Positions 52,053 through 58,960 of a stretch of 64,000 nt of DNA are shown one piece after another. The position numbers were made by a program, and so were the translations under genes. Position 1 is the first letter of the stretch. Each line of letters starts with the position of its first letter. The stretch covers positions 33,904,213 to 33,968,212 of the forward strand of contig OZ234493.1 of assembly GCA_965153455.1 (NCBI GenBank). The letters are read 5' to 3'. Under the pieces are notes generated by a model, which was given only the letters and a program-made list of their open reading frames with translations, was not told the DNA's origin and did not search any database. Source of the stretch: Sphagnum compactum (Eukaryota).

Positions 52053-55000
52053 CTAGACATGGAAGCTCTGAAGCCTGTTCGTGTCATTGAGCGTGTTTCG
52101 GTACAACCGATCACTGTCACTGATACAATAGAAGTCAGCCAGATACTCAAGGGCCTCTAGGTTTGTGTTACAAACTTTCCACAGACTGTCAAGCTCACCA
52201 GCAGACAACATTCCCCACTCTTGACAAGATTTTAAGAACTGTATCAAGCCTGTGAAAAAGCCGTCGTAGTTCAAAACAAGGAGTGGAACTGGAAACGCAG
52301 ACCCAAGTCGTTTCAGCTGGATTAGTGTCAAGATTTCAAACATTTCATCCAAAGTTCCCACGCCCCCAGGTAGTGACACGTAGGCTGTGCAGTCTGCCTG
52401 TTTATCCCGAACTCCAGCATCTGCAAGGCCGTGCTTGCGAGCTGAGAAGAACCTGTAGAAAAGGATTCCATATGATCTTTTTGCCCTTGTGAATCTATTG
52501 GGTCCTATCTATCAAACAGTTGGTGGAGTGAACTTGATACAGAAATCCAGAAAAGATGCAAGCAGGAGAGTGAATTGGGTCGCTAAGGAACATTGAATCT
52601 TTGAAAACCTTGATCAACACACATATAGACAGAAACTTGTCTCAATAGCATCAAAGGAGTTGATTTTGGTATGAAGTCAATAGCCAAGTAGTAGGCGTCA
52701 GGGCAACTTTGTGTGGTGCAATCAATCATTAAAACCCCAGCTATGTTCATGCTATATGTCCAAACATAAGTATCAAGTTATAGCTATAACAAGGTGCCAT
52801 GAGCAAATATAGATAGGGTTTAGGGTTTAGCTATAAGTAATCAAGGTTTAGTGCTATAACATGTGTATTGAGCAAATATAGATCGTTCTTCTTCTCAGTA
52901 CATTCCACACTTCCATCAGCATTAGCATTTGCTCTAGCATGTAAGAAGAGATATTGCTCAAAGGGAAACAAGAAACACAATGCTCATTTTCTGAATTAGC
53001 ATGAGAAGTACTAAGTTTTAGAGACACAAAACAGCAATGGATAAAAAGTTGGCAGAAGGAAACACCGGTGACTCACCGGCAAGTCAGATAAGTGTGATCA
53101 GAGAGGTAGGGGTGAACACAGGAATTGGTCCAGGTGCCACCCTCATTTGAGATTTTGAACCCACCCACAGGTTTGTGGGCTTGTAATGCACCTTGAGTGA
53201 CTGCATCCATCATGCCTGGCCCCACCCCTGTCCATGACGTGCAGTTGAGCAGTAGAGCCACCTGCACCCCCGCCACTCTCTTCCTCCTCTCAGCCCATCA
53301 TTCCTATTTGCCTACATTTTGTATCCTTGGACAAATCATCCAATGGGCACCTGATTGGCTATTACACATACAAAATTTGGAATGTGTCTCATGCTACATC
53401 ACAAGCTATCATTTGTTATGTTGCAAATACTGGCAGCATCAACTATCAAATACCAAGCCACTGCACAACTATAGGGCATTCGCTTTGAGATCAGGAGAGT
53501 TCAGAGCCTGTCAGACTTCTGCTTACAGAACCCAGTTGCCCACAACTTTGTCAAGCATGATCAACCAGATTGTGCAACCCGGACATCACCATATCATTAG
53601 CTGCTTGATTTGAACTTATGAAGAAAGATTAGTGGAATCAAAAAGTCACATCTCAGGACTCACACAGCACAATAGTTCCAGAAACAATTCAAAGACACAT
53701 AATGAGATGGCAGGACAGCCATGTAACCCTACTTGCCAAAGTGCCAGGTAATAACTTAGAGGACTTACTTCCCGTCCCAGCTCCATGGCCTGTAAGTAAT
53801 GAGGGTGGTCTGCTTTTGTTCGCGAAGATCCAAAATACACAACACCCTTCCCAAGCTTCTGCACTAGTGCATAGCACTCCAGAATCTCTTTCCGCACCTG
53901 CAAAGTGTCAGTGTACACCAAGGTATACAGGTCAATAGGCACCAAACTTCAGTGTAAGAAGTAATGTGGTCATTGCCATAACAGTGGAACAACTGGCTCA
54001 TCACATAATGGCTCTGCCCTTTAAATGGCATCCATAAAGATGATAAAAATTTGAACATACTAAATTGGAAACACATGATGATTAGCAAGGTGAAGCCCTG
54101 AGTAGATCCTTCAGTTATGCTGGAAATGTTTCATTAGTGCACTCCACATGAACCTAGAATGTAGGGATACCAAACTGTTGCTCGTTTCTGGGTGCATCAC
54201 AATGTCTCTACCCTCATAGAAGGGCAGAGCCAATAAAGCTCACATTGCAACCTCTCATGTAGTCAAATAGGACTAGTCATAGATCCATGTTTTTTTGGAG
54301 CAGTGCAAATAAAACTTAGGCATAAATCCATGCTTTTGGCTTAGTGCAAATAGGACTAATCATAGATCCACATTTTTGGCATGGTGCAAATGTGACTAGT
54401 CATAGATTCACGCTTTTGGCATACTGCAAATAAGACTAGTCATAGATCCACATTTTTGACATAATGCAAATGTGACTAGTCATAGATTCACACTTCTGGC
54501 ATGGTGCAAATAAGACTCATCATAGATCTGCATTTTTAGCACAGTGCAAAGAAGTCTAGTCAGAGATCCGTGTTCTTGGTGTAGTGCAAATGTGACTAGT
54601 CATAGATCCACATTTTTGGCATAGAATGTGACTGGTCATGGATCCAGGTTTTTGGCATAGTGCAAATGCGACTATTCATAGATTCATGTTTTTGGCATAG
54701 TTTTTTGCAGAGTGCAAATAGGACTAGTCATAGATCCATGTTTTTGGCATAGTAGTGCACAACCGAACTAAAGTGTGGGCAATGTTCTGATACCTCATCA
54801 GCACTTGTTCGTGTGCGTAGCTCGTCATTGTATGCTGGGGGCATGCTATCACCACTCCCCTTTGATTGCAGGACAATTGACTCCCCTCTTTTCAGGCAAG
54901 AAGAAGATGAAGCAGCAGCAGCAGCAGCAAATGAAAATCCTTGTTTGAATCCCCCATCCACACTTTGTTTTAGGTCATGAGAATTACAACACCTGGTGAA

Positions 55001-55216: not shown

Positions 55217-55458
55217 GGTTTTTCAAGCTTTCAGTGCTGCACCTGCTGCTTGCTGCTGCTGCTGCACACATGGGAAAACACCAGTCAGCCAGCCAGGCGC
55301 CCACACCTTCCGCTCAAAAGGCCAAAAAAAAAAAAAAAAAGGCCCCTCTACAACGCTTCTCTCAGAAACTTAGTTCTCGCATACACTAGGGCTTTCAAAT
55401 CCTAGGGTTTCTGTCATTACACTAGTGTTTCTCTAGGAGAGAGAGGAGGAGCTATGGA
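55217..55458. promoter_or_regulatory. Putative bidirectional promoter between the divergent LOG-like and PPR genes
   Basis: Only 242 bp separate the two divergent ATGs; contains a telo-box (TAGGGTTT, 55403-55410) and GGCCC/GCCCA site-II-like motifs. Confidence 0.55.
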
Positions 55459-58418
55459 ATGAACATCATGGCCATGCGACAATCTGCAGTACTACATCTA
55501 TCGCGCCTTTTCCTCGGTGAGTTTGAGCCTTGAGAATGATGATGATTGTTTCTTGTCTTTTGAAATGTTGGTTCTCTTTCTTTCTTCTCCATGGTTTCGA
55601 GAAAATCTGCTTCAAGAATTAGGGTTAAGCAACCAAGCAATCTCTCTCTCTCTCTCTCAAATCTTTGCAAACTATGAAACATGTCTCATGAGGCCAGTCA
55701 ATTGAACTATCTTGCATTTGGCAGGTTTTGCAAGGTTGCACAAAACCCTAGCCTCTTCTGCAAGAAGAGGAGATCATCATCATCTTCTTCCAGTAACCAA
55801 ACCAATTCCATTATTGTCAGGTGAGCAGCAGGTGTTTTTTTGTGTGTTTCTGTATGTGTATGAATGTTGAAGACTCCAAATCATTTTATTTTATTTTGTT
55901 TTTTTTTTCACAAAGGGTTGTTTTGTTTTGTTGGGTTGTGCAAAATCTTTATCAACTTGAACCCTAGCTATCCATCATCCCTTCTGCAAGAAAGATGGCA
56001 CAGAAAGTCCCAACCCAAGGAATTCTCTCTTTATTTCTTAGGGTGGTTTGTTGTTGTTTATTCACCAGTTTTGTGTGGTTTGATGGCAGACCAGAAAAGG
56101 ATTGTTGAGAAACTTTGGCAGGAGCTTTTTGCAGATCCTTCACAGTGGTGGGATCACAGGCCAGAGAAGGTACCCAATTGAAAACAACCCCACTGAGCTG
56201 CAAATATCTTGGGTGATTTGACGCAGGAAGAAGTTGGTACATCATCCATTCTTTCTTGTCTAGGTCATGAATTGCTCTGGGTCTTTTACCCCAGGCCTGT
56301 GAGGAATGCAAAAGCTGATCACCTGCATTTGGATATATATTCTGATCTCAGGGAAATGTGAGGTATCCGGATTTTAAACACAAGAAGACACAGGAGGCAC
56401 TTTGGCTCAATGGAAGTTTCACCCCACAATGGGTGGAAGCAAAGCTTGCAGCATTGGCACCAGGGACTGTACAATTAAGCAATTTCCAATGGAATGTTAA
56501 GCTTGCAAGGTATGTCAAGTCAGGGCACTATGAGAAGACCTTGGAGCTCTTTGAGCAAATGCTTCAAGAAGGCATGCTTCCTGACAAGTTCACTTTTGTG
56601 CCAGTGCTCAATGCATGTGCTAGTTTGCAAGCACTTGATAAGGGCAGATCCATCCATGCCCAGATCCTGACAAGTGGGTTTGAGTCAGATGTTTACATGG
56701 GTAATAGCCTTGTGGATATGTATTCCAAATGTGGGAGCATCGACGATGCTTGGAGAGTGTTCAGCAAGATGCCTACACGTGGTGCAGTTGCTTGGAGTGC
56801 TATAATTTTGGGACATGTGAAATGTGGACAAGGGCATAAGGCATTAGCATTGTCTCAACAAATGCAACAGGAAGGGGTGGATCCAGACCCTGTCACTTTC
56901 GTGGGGATTTTGAACGCATGTGCCAGTGTTGCAGCTCTTGAAGAGGGCAGAAATGTTCATGATCATATCATTCGGAGTGGTTGTGAGTCTAATGTGTTTG
57001 TGGGCAGTAGCCTCATTGACATGTATGCCAAATGTGGGAAGTCGGAGGAAGCACAAAGAGTGTTTGACAGGATGCCAATCCGCAATGTGGTCTCTTGGAA
57101 TGCTATGATTGTGGGACATGTGAAATGTGGATATGGGCGGAAGGCCCTGGAAATATATCAACAAATGCAACTGGAAGGGGTGGAACCAAATGCTTTCACC
57201 TTTGTGGCGATTCTCAATGCATGTGCCAGTGTAGGGGAACTTGAAGAAGGTAGGCGTGTGCATAAGCAGATTATTCACAGTGGATGTGAGTCTGACATTT
57301 TTGTCAGCAATAGCCTCATTGACATGTATGCCAAATGTGGGTGTATAGAGGATTCTTGTAGGGTGTTCAGCACAATGCGTATACGTGATGTGTTTGCTTG
57401 GAGTGCCATGATTCTGGGATATGTCAGATGTGGCCAAGGGGCAAAGGCATTGGAACTATTTCGACAAATGCAACTGGAGAGAGTGAAGCCAGACCCTGTC
57501 ATCTTTGTGGCAGTGTTGAATGCATGTGCTAGTGTAATGGCACTTCCTGAAGGAAAGAGAATTCATGATCAGATCATTCAGAATGGCTGTGAGTCTGAGA
57601 TCTTTGTGGCTAGTAGCCTTGTTGACATGTATGCTAAATGTGGAAGCATAGAGGATGCACAAAGGGTGTTTGACAGGATGTCCACACGCAATGTGGTCGC
57701 TTGGAATGCCATGATCCTGGGACATGTGAAATGTGGGCAAGGGCAGAAGGCATTAACATTGTTTCAACAAATGCAACAGGAAGGGGTGCAGCCAGATGCT
57801 GCCACTTTTGTGGGGGCCCTAAATGCATGTGCCAGTGTAGTGGCACTTGAAGAAGGTCAGCATGTTCACAAACAGATCATTGAAAATGGTTTTCAGTCTG
57901 ACATCTCTGTAAGCAGTAGCCTCATTGACATGTATGCCAAATGTGGGAGCATAGAAGATGCACAGAATGTGTTCAACGGTATGGCAACACGTAATGTGGT
58001 TTCATGGACAGCCATGCTAGGATGCTATGCAATGCATGGGCATGGTAAGGAAGCTCTTGGACACTTTGAACAGATGTGTCAAGAAGAAGTTGAGATGGAT
58101 CAAGTCACTTTTGTTGCTCTTTTGTCAGCTTGTAGCCATGCCGGCCTAGTGGATGAAGGTTGGCGCTACTTTGAATCCATGGGTCTGGTTCACAGTATTT
58201 CTGCAACAGTGGAGCATTATGCCTGCATGGTTGATCTTCTTGGCCGTGCTGGTCATCTGCAGGAGGCAGAAGATTTCATCAATACAATGTCCTTCAAACC
58301 CAGTGCTTCTGTTTGGAGGGCCTTGCTGTGTGCTTGCAGAAATCATGGTAATGTGGAGATGGGAGAATCCATAGCAAAAAAAATTCCTGACATTGGACCC
58401 TGGGAACGCTACTATTGA
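55459..58418 (+). CDS. PLS-class PPR protein with N-terminal transit-like peptide and OSB-type PDF motif, truncated in the E region; exons 55459-55516, 55725-55820, 56069-56169, 56352-58418
   Basis: In-frame splicing gives MNIMAMRQSAVLHLSRLFLGFARLHKTLASSARR...LWQELFADPSQWWDHRPEK|GNVRYPDFKHKKTQEALWL...PQWV. Five P-L-S triplets follow with an exact 303-bp period (DMY.KCG at 56715, 57018, 57321, 57624, 57927), then P2-L2-S2 (LLSACSHAGLVDEG, HYACMVDLLGRAG) and the start of E1. Confidence 0.88.
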
Positions 58419-58960
58419 TCTGAGTCTATCAAACATCTATGCGGCCACTGGCAAGTGCAAACTCAGTGCTGACGGTCAACAACCAAGATTGGAAAGAGCT
58501 TTGTAGAAACAGCTCACAGTGTACTTGATTTGAAGTATATAATGAGGTGCATACATTTGCAATAATGGATGATGAAAGGCCATCCTCACATGAGTGAAAT
58601 CCACAGAGAACAAAAGCGACTATCCAGATATATGAAGAATGCCAGATATGTGTGAGATGTGAATTCTGGGCTGCATGATGTGACGGAAGGAGAAAAAAGG
58701 TGTCTCATTGGTGTCACCACGTCAAGAAGCTGGTCATTGCATTTGGGCTATGAACACACACACCCTTCTGCTACAACAGTCCACAATCTCAAGAATCAAT
58801 GGGTATGAGATGACTACCCACAATTGCATCAAGCCCCAATTTTCTCAAAGCTTTTGTCTCAAAGATAGTTGAGAGATCACTCATAGTAAGAGATGTGAAT
58901 TGGGTTCCATGACCATGCAGATCGACTTTTGTTCTTGCAGAGGCGTGTTCCAGCGATGAG
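58376..58960 (+). pseudogene. Decayed E2/DYW deaminase domain downstream of the PPR stop codon
   Basis: Out-of-frame remnants: LDPGNAT...LSNIYAATGK, CT*FEVYNEVHTF, HPHMSEIH, YV*D..LHDV, CHHVKKLVIAFGL*, KNQWV*DD, FVSKIVERSLIVRDVN, CSCR. Confidence 0.88.

What the first reader, a model, noticed from the sequence alone, without database searches (positions are those of the whole stretch)
55459..58418. OSB-type PDF ssDNA-binding motif fused to an organelle-targeted PLS-class PPR array
Seen: the ORF track hides this because an intron (56170-56351) splits the motif. Splicing restores LWQELFADPSQWWDHRPEKGNVRYPDFKHKKTQEALWLNGSFTPQWV directly before the first PPR repeat. Two further in-frame exons add an Arg/Ser/Leu-rich, acid-poor N-terminus resembling a mitochondrial presequence. 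Established: W..FF..P..WWDNR..K...YPDFKHK....ALW....P.WV is the PDF motif of plant Organellar Single-stranded DNA Binding (OSB) proteins, where it follows an OB fold and binds ssDNA; PLS PPR proteins are sequence-specific organellar C-to-U editing factors. Inference: this is a PDF-PPR(-DYW) chimera with no OB fold. It could tether an RNA-recognition module to organellar ssDNA, nucleoids or R-loops, or allow such proteins to act on ssDNA. I do not know of a described protein with this architecture, but I cannot search to confirm novelty.
Basis: partly seen in the sequence, partly recalled or inferred. Interest (0 to 1): 0.8.

Follow-up and report, generated by a model that had tools for sequence, protein, structure and literature searches.

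The report
OSB-type PDF motif on moss PPR protein
A transcribed peat-moss gene encodes an organelle-type RNA-binding PPR protein whose front end carries the single-stranded-DNA-binding "PDF" motif otherwise known from OSB proteins, and the same unreported domain combination turns out to be a large family in mosses, a clubmoss and a fern.

Summary
A four-exon gene on the + strand (55459-58418) encodes a short acid-poor N-terminus, one PDF motif split by a GT-AG intron (56170-56351), and a PLS-class PPR array. RNA contigs and reads confirm junctions 55516/55725 and 56169/56352. The second intron ends at 56090, not 56069.

A profile built only from PDF copies of SSB/OB-fold (OSB-type) proteins scores the spliced motif 82.9 bits. 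The best of 1000 shuffles scored 8.9.

There is no OB fold, and this copy has no DYW domain. Its E/DYW end is decayed, with stops and frameshifts. The window's A8 run is A7 in RNA and in three orthologous contigs.

The architecture is not unique to this gene. 110 stored proteins carry both PDF and PPR, from six Sphagnum species, Diphasiastrum complanatum and Adiantum. 34 of the 110 have an HxE...CxxCH deaminase signature. Peat metagenomes hold at least 33 paralogues with the same intron position.

Pfam has no PDF model, and eight literature searches found no paper describing the fusion.

I read the PDF motif as an accessory single-stranded nucleic-acid-binding module on editing-type PPR proteins of seed-free plants. 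That function is inferred, not shown.

The parts
55459..55516 (+). Exon 1: start codon and first part of an acid-poor, R/S/L-rich N-terminus (putative organelle presequence)
   Evidence: ATG at 55459 and donor GT. Joint 55516/55725 in contigs of X2, X1 and X17. Composition.
55517..55724 (+). Intron 1 (208 nt, GT..AG), sometimes retained
   Evidence: the joint skips 208 nt. Unspliced contigs cover 55473/55489-55753.
55725..55820 (+). Exon 2: rest of the N-terminal presequence-like region
55821..56089 (+). Intron 2 (269 nt, GT..AG).
   Evidence: joint 55817>56087 (cut +3), skips 269 nt, side 81, in contigs of X2, X1 and X17. Depth is 0 in bin 55870-55983.
56090..56169 (+). Exon 3: linker and first half of the PDF motif (motif starts about 56107), ending ...WWDHRPEK
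   Evidence: tblastn of P0006 residues 54-83.
56170..56351 (+). Intron 3 (182 nt, GT..AG), which splits the PDF motif at profile position 26-29. The position is conserved in paralogues.
   Evidence: joint in 2 raw X23 reads and in contigs of X2, X1 and X17, with depth 0 in bin 56212-56325; 64 of 80 related loci are split at the same profile position.
56352..56456 (+). Start of exon 4: second half of the PDF motif (GNVRYPDFKHKKTQEALWL...PQWV...)
   Evidence: domain residues 58-113 of the spliced protein. (hits with E down to 6.7e-18).
56457..58375 (+). Rest of exon 4: PLS-class PPR array, with four 303-nt (101-aa) P-L-S triplets at 56790-58000, then P2/L2/S2-like repeats and the start of a degenerate E1 motif
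   Evidence: Pfam PPR_2 2.1e-101 and PPR 2.1e-89. TRF period 303 x 4.0 copies.
58376..58383 (+). A8 homopolymer, one base longer than in RNA and in orthologous contigs. It shifts the frame so that the window ORF stops at 58416-58418.
   Evidence: table 4 (8 of 10 X23 reads; contigs of X1, X17 and X2). (A7 in L001-L003).
58384..58506 (+). Remainder of the degenerate E1 motif, read in the A7 frame. The stop is at 58504-58506, and the orthologue P0001 ends at the same place.
   Evidence: ORF 58375..58506. P0001 C-terminus.
58507..58900 (+). Decayed E2/DYW deaminase remnant, now 3' UTR: stops, frameshifts, HxE and CxxC lost
   Evidence: tblastn against the P0006 C-terminus. RNA depth continues at 8-24. 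10-16 indel bases versus L001-L003.

Best explanation
This is a real, transcribed and spliced nuclear gene of a Sphagnum-type moss. It encodes a presequence-like N-terminus, one OSB-type PDF motif and a PLS-class PPR array.

It belongs to a large and apparently old family of PDF-PLS-PPR(-E-DYW) proteins found in Sphagnum, the lycophyte Diphasiastrum and the fern Adiantum. In that family, one to three PDF motifs always sit directly upstream of the PPR tract.

Shown here:
- the gene structure;
- expression of the gene;
- homology of the motif to the PDF motif of OSB proteins;
- absence of an OB fold;
- the spread of the family;
- the conserved intron inside the motif;
- stronger conservation of the motif than of the PPR repeats.

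Inferred: the PDF motif works as an accessory, sequence-unspecific binder of single-stranded nucleic acid. PPR tracts bind RNA with their N-terminal repeats towards the RNA 5' end. The motif would therefore contact the strand just 5' of the PPR footprint, or nearby nucleoid ssDNA, and raise the affinity or local concentration of the editing factor.

This particular copy has lost its own E2/DYW deaminase. If it is still functional, it acts as a recognition or binding factor without catalytic activity.
For: Gene model and expression
- Spliced contigs and reads, with the first mate on the minus strand, so the RNA comes from the + strand.
- Annotated models in six named Sphagnum species carry the contiguous motif before the PPR array.

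Homology
- The spliced motif scores 82.9 bits against the OSB-only PDF profile, versus at most 8.9 bits for shuffles.
- The Sphagnum-PPR profile finds 1068 representatives at E<=1e-3.
- 15 of 21 sampled non-PPR hits carry SSB PF00436 upstream of the PDF copies at E<=1e-3; 9 of them are above the curated cut-off.
- Many hits are named OSB1/2/3.

Family
- 110 of 313 stored proteins have both PDF and PPR. PDF lies upstream of PPR in 109 of 110; the exception, P0261, is PDF-PPR-PDF-PPR.
- 75 hits are all from Diphasiastrum complanatum.
- 34 of 110 have HxE...CxxCH.

Constraint
- Among 9 Sphagnum paralogues the PDF segment is 71% identical, the next 210 aa 61% and the presequence 27%.
- 27 of the 28 invariant columns of A1 are kept in the window copy.
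- The intron position is shared by 64 of 80 loci. Four cDNA-like contigs carry the spliced motif and cluster with split genomic loci.

Structure
- AlphaFold2 gives a confident small alpha/beta domain rich in conserved W/F/Y and K/R/H (pLDDT 88.2).

Literature (passages read)
- The PDF motif of AtOSB1 suffices for ssDNA binding (PMC6963530).
- OSB1/2 prefer ssDNA over dsDNA or RNA (PMC4166229).

ORF maintenance in this copy
- Exon 4 has 0 indels in 2019 nt versus three orthologues.
- The 394-nt DYW remnant has 10-16 indel bases and several stops.
Against: - No binding, localisation or editing data exist for any PDF-PPR protein. The function of the motif in this context is pure inference.
- OSB PDF motifs prefer ssDNA to RNA (PMC4166229 passage), so an RNA-clamp role is not the obvious default.
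- This copy lacks DYW, and the window carries a frameshifting A8 run.
- Against the orthologues, synonymous to non-synonymous differences in exon 4 are only 18:20, 12:20 and 12:20. Exon identity (98.1-98.4%) is no higher than intron identity (96.1-99.5%). Constraint on this copy is therefore weak or relaxed.
- Organelle targeting rests on composition only.
- The predicted fold has no significant match in the PDB, so structure gives no functional support.
Confidence: 0.6

Rival explanations
1. Nucleoid or ssDNA tether. The PDF motif binds organellar ssDNA (replication or recombination intermediates, the non-template strand, R-loops). This places PLS-PPR editing factors on the nucleoid so that editing is coupled to transcription. 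In the extreme form, it lets the DYW deaminase reach ssDNA.
For: - PDF motifs of OSB proteins bind ssDNA, preferentially over RNA (passages in PMC6963530 and PMC4166229).
- The PPR-linked motif keeps the OSB consensus, including W, WWD.R, PDFKHK, ALW and P.WV.
- 34 of 110 family members have an apparently intact deaminase signature.
Against: - There is no experimental link between PPR editing factors and DNA in these calls.
- The motif abuts the first PPR repeat, with a median gap of 19 residues. That placement fits co-linear contact with the same strand as well as it fits tethering.
- The window copy has no deaminase.
Confidence: 0.25
2. The window copy is a decaying, transcribed pseudogene. 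After losing E2/DYW it no longer does anything, and the intact PDF and PPR parts are only not yet eroded.
For: - The DYW remnant has stops and frameshifts.
- The window has an A8 frameshift where all RNA and orthologous DNA examined has A7.
- The syn:non ratio is near 1:1 to 1:1.7, and exons are no more conserved than introns.
- Among 24 listed RNA differences, 10 are synonymous and 14 non-synonymous.
Against: - The 2.3-kb spliced ORF is open.
- Exon 4 has 0 indels in 2019 nt versus three orthologues, while the 394-nt remnant has 10-16 indel bases.
- The same truncated end is shared with P0001 and L001-L003.
- The transcript is spliced and polyadenylated (X23 is a polyA library).
- 27 of 28 invariant PDF columns are kept.
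Confidence: 0.25
3. In PPR proteins the PDF motif is a protein-protein interaction or assembly module (for example with OSB proteins or with itself) rather than a nucleic-acid binder.
For: - AtOSB2 is a tetramer (PMC6963530 passage).
- PDF copies occur in tandem arrays of up to 13 and on unrelated partners such as a kinesin. This suggests a portable module.
Against: - The only activity reported for the motif in the passages read is ssDNA binding.
- Oligomerisation of OSB has not been mapped to the PDF motif in those passages.
Confidence: 0.1
4. Gene-model artefact: the PDF exon belongs to a separate upstream OSB-like gene and is only fortuitously in frame with the PPR exon.
For: None beyond the fact that the motif is split by an intron and hidden from ORF lists.
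Against: - Contigs and raw reads join exon 3 to exon 4, and exon 2 to exon 3.
- There is no SSB domain, and only 51 residues lie upstream.
- The same layout occurs in annotated models of six Sphagnum species and in four cDNA-like contigs.
Confidence: 0.02

Closest known systems
[quoted passage not shown]
   Same: - The same about 55-residue PDF motif (W..lF..P..WWDnR..K....PDFKHK.tgeaLW....P.WV), scoring 82.9 bits against an OSB-only profile.
- A presequence-like N-terminus.
- Reciprocal profile searches retrieve proteins named OSB1/2/3.
   Different: - No SSB/OB-fold domain.
- The motif is N-terminal to a long PPR array, instead of C-terminal to an OB fold.
- A single copy here, against one to five in OSBs (PMC13393729 passages) and up to 13 in some deposited proteins.
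PLS-class PPR-E-DYW RNA-editing factors of land plants (for example the Physcomitrium DYW-type proteins reviewed in PMC9459714)
   Same: - P-L-S triplet array with a 101-aa period.
- Paralogues carry E, E+ and DYW Pfam domains ending in ...DYW.
   Different: - An extra N-terminal PDF motif, which is not among the accessory domains listed in the figure legend read in PMC9459714.
- The window copy has lost E2/DYW.
PPR proteins with an added nucleic-acid-binding or enzymatic domain (maize PPR4 with an N-terminal RRM; PPR-SMR; OTP51 with LAGLIDADG)
   Same: The concept is the same: a PPR tract combined with a second, unrelated nucleic-acid-related module. PPR4 also carries its module at the N-terminus (PMC9459714 passage).
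   Different: - Those are P-class proteins with RRM, SMR or LAGLIDADG domains.
- Here a PLS-class, editing-type tract is combined with a motif known only as an ssDNA binder.

Membership tests
OSB (organellar ssDNA-binding) family | One or more PDF motifs | tested here: met
   82.9 bits against a profile of 27 PDF copies from SSB-bearing proteins; shuffles score at most 8.9.
OSB (organellar ssDNA-binding) family | Central SSB-like OB-fold domain N-terminal to the PDF motif(s) | tested here: not met
   Only 51 residues precede the motif. No PF00436 on the window pieces or on full-length P0006, P0013 or P0011. PF00436 is absent from all PPR-bearing rows.
OSB (organellar ssDNA-binding) family | N-terminal organelle transit peptide | tested here: inconclusive
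   Composition only: 0 acidic and 6 basic residues in the first 35. No targeting predictor or localisation was available.
OSB (organellar ssDNA-binding) family | High-affinity binding to ssDNA | not testable with these tools
   Needs EMSA or similar.
PLS-class PPR proteins | Tandem PPR motifs | tested here: met
   PF13041 2.1e-101 (11 stretches) and PF01535 2.1e-89 (14 stretches).
PLS-class PPR proteins | P-L-S triplet periodicity (about 35+35/36+31 residues) | tested here: met
   Tandem period of 303 nt (101 aa) x 4.0 copies at 56790-58000.
PPR-E-DYW editing factors | E1/E2 motifs after the PPR array | tested here: not met
   No PF20431 hit on the window ORF. Only a degenerate E1 remnant exists, out of frame in the window. 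Paralogues P0006 and P0013 do have it.
PPR-E-DYW editing factors | DYW cytidine-deaminase domain with HxE and CxxC zinc ligands | tested here: not met
   The downstream remnant has stops in both aligned frames, HSE is changed to HVK and the CxxC region is lost. It is intact in 34 of 110 family members by signature, and PF14432 is found in P0006, P0013 and P0011.
PPR-E-DYW editing factors | C-to-U editing of a defined organellar site | not testable with these tools
   Needs organelle transcriptome data and genetics or a heterologous assay.

The most novel reading that the evidence does not exclude
PDF-PLS-PPR-DYW is an ancient architecture of land-plant RNA-editing factors that arose once. 43 of 50 PPR-linked PDF copies from moss, lycophyte and fern fall in one clade.

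In this reading the PDF motif supplies general single-strand affinity or nucleoid/R-loop coupling. It does so in lineages that, as I recall and did not test here, lack the MORF/RIP helper proteins of seed plants. Editing factors of seed-free plants would then be physically coupled to organellar ssDNA or to nascent transcripts. The motif could be a portable affinity module for designer PPR editors.
Probability: 0.25. Interest if true: 0.85.

Novelty: new variant of a known kind. Interest (0 to 1): 0.68.

Why it matters
PLS-DYW PPR proteins are the site-specific C-to-U editing factors of plant organelles and the basis of programmable RNA editors. OSB proteins guard mitochondrial genome stability through the PDF motif.

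A large, conserved family that joins the two modules has, as far as my searches reach, not been described. It would add a new accessory domain to the editing machinery of seed-free plants. It would also suggest a physical link between organellar DNA or nascent RNA and editing, and widen the known contexts of the PDF motif.

No PDB sequence matches the PDF profile, and the predicted fold has no clear match in the PDB. The motif's function is directly testable by EMSA and by editing assays with and without the motif.

The recent OSB survey (PMC13393729) required both an OB fold and a PDF motif, so it would have filtered these proteins out.

Tried and rejected
Tools and look-ups that gave nothing
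- No genome is held for this window, so no genome-wide census of PPR genes with and without PDF could be made.
The taxa of several PDF-PPR representatives (P0031, P0070, P0104, P0141, P0143) therefore stay unknown. The Atlas look-up of P0104 gave only 'Streptophyta'.
- Zaegel et al. 2006 could not be read. Its content is cited only through passages of reviews. Supplementary tables of PMC13393729 were not seen.
- Earlier scan notes: nothing by place, words or sequence.

Searches without a match
- Pfam holds no model that matches the PDF region.
- The PDF profile found no PDB sequence at E<=1.
- Fold searches of the AlphaFold2 PDF model gave nothing significant: Foldseek best E 4.9 (a WW domain), and VIA-align best Z 2.7 of 48161 chains. 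This is inconclusive and is not proof of a new fold.

Weak or limited analyses
- The rough syn/non count from the RNA differences (10:14) mixes strains and possibly paralogues. I give it little weight.
- My first regex scan for split motifs found both halves in only 51 of 80 loci, because the pattern was too strict. The profile-based scan replaced it (64 split, 5 contiguous, 11 second half only).
- In the tree my script wrongly put the 5 Sanguina rows in the 'PPR' group, so its group table (55/50 rows, 4 changes) is off. I recounted from the drawn tree. The tree has only 62 columns, a quick search, and 62 of 102 forks unresolved.

Rejected readings
- PDF exon of a separate gene.
- Chance or compositional similarity.
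Full report
**1. What is in the window**

Public RNA data were laid on 55300-58700. The runs were one raw polyA RNA-seq run (X23), two metatranscriptome contig sets (X2, X17) and one probable RNA contig set (X1). Results:
- Joint 55516/55725 appears in one contig in each of X2, X1 and X17 (side 27-30).
- Joint 56169/56352 appears in 2 raw X23 reads (side 73) and one contig in each of X2, X1 and X17 (side 81).
- The second intron is joined 55820/56090, not 55820/56069 (one contig in each of X2, X1 and X17, side 81).
- Introns 2 and 3 have depth 0 in their inner bins. Intron 1 is also covered by unspliced contigs.
- X23 reads lie with the first mate on the minus strand, as expected for RNA from the + strand.

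The corrected model is 55459-55516 / 55725-55820 / 56090-56169 / 56352-58418, 766 aa in the window's frame. It is the only PPR gene in the window.

The nearest recognisable neighbour is a LOG-like exon (PF03641) on the minus strand at 52056-52508.

**2. The motif is a PDF motif**

Pfam has no family for this region. The window pieces and three full-length relatives match PPR, E and DYW families only.

I therefore built a profile from the motif region of eight Sphagnum PPR proteins (A1) and ran it over 1.84 billion representatives:
- 1068 hits at E<=1e-3, 398 at E<=1e-10 and 50 at E<=1e-30.
- Of the listed hits, most are non-PPR proteins with 1-13 tandem copies. They typically have about 200 residues followed by 1-4 copies.
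- Of 21 such proteins sent to Pfam, 15 carry SSB PF00436 upstream of the copies at E<=1e-3, 9 of them above the curated cut-off.
- This is the OSB layout described in the passages I read of PMC6963530, PMC4166229 and PMC13393729.

A second profile search that returns source names (A2) gave 1272 hits of 7351 candidates, with the best 120 listed. It lists many 'protein OSB1/OSB2/OSB3' and 'organellar single-stranded DNA binding protein 3' entries. These include P0096, P0101 and P0027, which I had used as OSB-type examples.

As the direct test, I built a profile from only 27 PDF copies of 14 SSB-bearing proteins. It scores the window's spliced protein 82.9 bits over residues 58-113. The best of 1000 shuffles of its N-terminal 115 residues scores 8.9 bits.

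**3. What this copy lacks**

- Only 51 residues precede the motif, so there is no room for an OB fold, and none is detected.
- These residues are acid-poor and R/S/L-rich: 0 acidic and 6 basic residues in the first 35. That is compatible with an organelle presequence, but no predictor was available.
- The PPR part is PLS-class. It has four 303-nt (101-aa) units at 74% identity and strong PPR family scores.
- The C-terminal end is degenerate. The E1 motif is atypical.
- The window's A8 run at 58376-58383 shifts the frame to a stop at 58418.
- Downstream, the E2/DYW region aligns to the C-terminus of paralogue P0006 only through several stops in two frames. HSE is changed to HVK and the CxxC region is lost.
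- The A-run is one base shorter in 8 of 10 X23 reads, in contigs of X1, X17 and X2, and in three orthologous metagenome contigs L001-L003.
- In that A7 frame the protein continues into the ORF 58375..58506 and ends where the 98%-identical orthologue P0001 ends.
- Either way there is no deaminase. The A8 is either a private frameshift or an assembly error.

**4. Is this copy alive?**

For:
- It is spliced and present in a polyA library.
- The 2.3-kb ORF is open.
- Exon 4 shows 0 indels in 2019 nt against three orthologues, while the 394-nt DYW remnant shows 10-16 indel bases.
- 27 of the 28 invariant motif columns of A1 are kept.

Against:
- Synonymous to non-synonymous differences are 18:20, 12:20 and 12:20.
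- Exons are no more conserved than introns.

I read it as a truncated member under relaxed constraint. A transcribed pseudogene stays a serious rival.

**5. The architecture is a family, not a one-off**

- The 43-residue start of exon 4 found 18 proteins of 25 candidates. Every hit that a source names (9 of the 18) comes from one of six Sphagnum species, and 16 of the 18 carry PPR.
- Full-length annotated models carry the contiguous motif directly before the array, and seven of the 16 end in a DYW signature.
- The motif region of representative P0126 found 75 proteins of 85 candidates, all named Diphasiastrum complanatum and all with PPR families.
- adds Adiantum capillus-veneris P0058 (two PDF copies plus PPR) and two transcriptome-derived proteins of unknown taxon (P0031, P0254; three copies).
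- Over all 313 stored proteins, 110 have both PDF and PPR.
- PDF lies upstream in 109 of the 110. The exception, P0261, reads PDF-PPR-PDF-PPR and is probably two merged tandem genes.
- Copy numbers are 1 (71 proteins), 2 (31) and 3 (8).
- The median gap to the first PPR match is 19 residues.
- 34 of the 110 carry HxE...CxxCH near the C-terminus.
- No PPR-bearing row in the top-120 list is from a seed plant. The lists are truncated, so absence there is not shown.

**6. Gene structure and constraint in paralogues**

560 were confirmed, and the best 80 loci were kept. These collapse to 35 clusters at 97% identity, or 33 at 93%.

Scoring + strand ORF pieces with the PDF profile gave:
- 64 of 80 loci with the motif split at profile position 26-29, by 127-794 nt (2 nt in L013);
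- 5 contiguous;
- 11 with the second half only. Several of these showed the first half in the regex scan.

Four contiguous loci (L008, L019, L026, L075) come from another contig series. They cluster at >=97% identity with split genomic loci, so they are the spliced forms of four further paralogues.

Among nine Sphagnum paralogues the PDF segment is the most conserved part: 71% mean identity, against 61% for the next 210 residues and 27% for the presequence.

**7. Origin**

- A quick maximum-likelihood tree of 105 PDF copies (62 columns, many forks unresolved) puts 43 of the 50 PPR-linked copies in one group (SH-aLRT 91). These include all Sphagnum and Diphasiastrum copies, one Adiantum copy, and P0070, P0104, P0141, P0143 and P0053.
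- The six copies of P0031 and P0254 group with seed-plant OSB copies (SH-aLRT 94). The second Adiantum copy, on a long branch, sits elsewhere (my group table there is mislabelled and I recounted by hand).
- This fits one old fusion plus at least one separate one, but the support is modest.
- OSB genes occur in streptophyte algae (PMC13393729 and PMC4166229 passages). The motif therefore probably predates its capture by PPR genes. This is inference.

**8. Structure**

- AlphaFold2 on a 31-row alignment predicts a compact helix / beta-hairpin-like / helix domain (pLDDT 88.2, pTM 0.74).
- Its invariant positions are aromatic (W8, W18, F33, W43) and charged or proline (D20, R22, P31, D32). K25, H35, K36 and W52 are nearly invariant.
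- No PDB sequence matches the profile, and no fold match is significant.

**9. How it most likely works**

Shown: a PDF motif homologous to the ssDNA-binding motif of OSB proteins is fixed, under constraint, immediately N-terminal to PLS-PPR tracts.

Established knowledge (recalled, not from a call): PPR tracts bind RNA with N-terminal repeats towards the 5' end, and the DYW domain acts just 3' of the footprint.

Inference: the motif adds sequence-unspecific single-strand affinity on the 5' side, or ties the factor to nucleoid ssDNA. I cannot separate these two readings with the tools at hand. Action of DYW on DNA is the least likely variant.

**10. Novelty**

None of the following searches returned a paper that describes the fusion:
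- 'PDF motif' with OSB1, and with pentatricopeptide;
- Sphagnum + pentatricopeptide + DYW;
- OSB + DYW + N-terminal + PPR;
- 'PDF motifs' / 'PDF domain' / 'OSB-like';
- pentatricopeptide + OSB1 + DYW;
- Diphasiastrum + DYW;
- 'organellar single-stranded DNA' + PPR + fusion.

The 2026 OSB survey PMC13393729 (passages read) kept only proteins with both an OB fold and a PDF motif, and it does not mention PPR.

The library lacks most subscription papers and all supplements, and Zaegel 2006 could not be read, so prior mention cannot be excluded.

The proteins themselves are already deposited as 'hypothetical' or 'unnamed' products. I rate the finding as a new variant of a known kind.

Noticed in passing
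P0051: A Coptis chinensis protein of 1526 aa has three PDF copies (190-389) followed by a kinesin motor domain (PF00225, 458-765). This is either another unusual partner for the PDF motif or a merged gene model.
   Followed up: no
P0019, P0020, P0021-P0023: Some deposited proteins carry 9-13 tandem PDF copies. One is Kingdonia uniflora P0019, with 13 copies and a weak SSB match at 935-1023. This is far above the one to five copies described in the OSB survey passages.
   Followed up: partly
P0025: A 521-aa protein with five PDF copies is labelled as coming from a MAG of the snow alga Sanguina aurantia (a chlorophyte). It could extend the range of the motif, or it could be contamination.
   Followed up: no
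window 55517-55724: Intron 1 is covered by unspliced contigs in three runs (55473/55489-55753), beside the spliced joint. Retention would stop the frame shortly after exon 1. The intron holds a (CT)n run near 55646-55660.
   Followed up: partly
window 56790-58000: The four PLS triplets are 74% identical to each other at the DNA level (period 303). This suggests recent internal duplication or homogenisation of repeats.
   Followed up: no
window 52056-52508 (-): An ORF piece matches PF03641 (LOG / 'possible lysine decarboxylase', 2.4e-19). It is an unrelated neighbouring gene on the opposite strand.
   Followed up: no
P0261: A Diphasiastrum model of 1362 aa reads PDF-PPR-PDF-PPR. It is probably two tandem PDF-PPR genes merged by annotation, which would mean tandem arrays of such genes.
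   Followed up: no
P0031 / P0254: Two proteins of about 1370 aa from transcriptome sources have three PDF copies before a PPR array. Their PDF copies group with seed-plant OSB copies rather than with the other PPR-linked copies. This may be a second, independent fusion. The taxon is unknown.
   Followed up: partly
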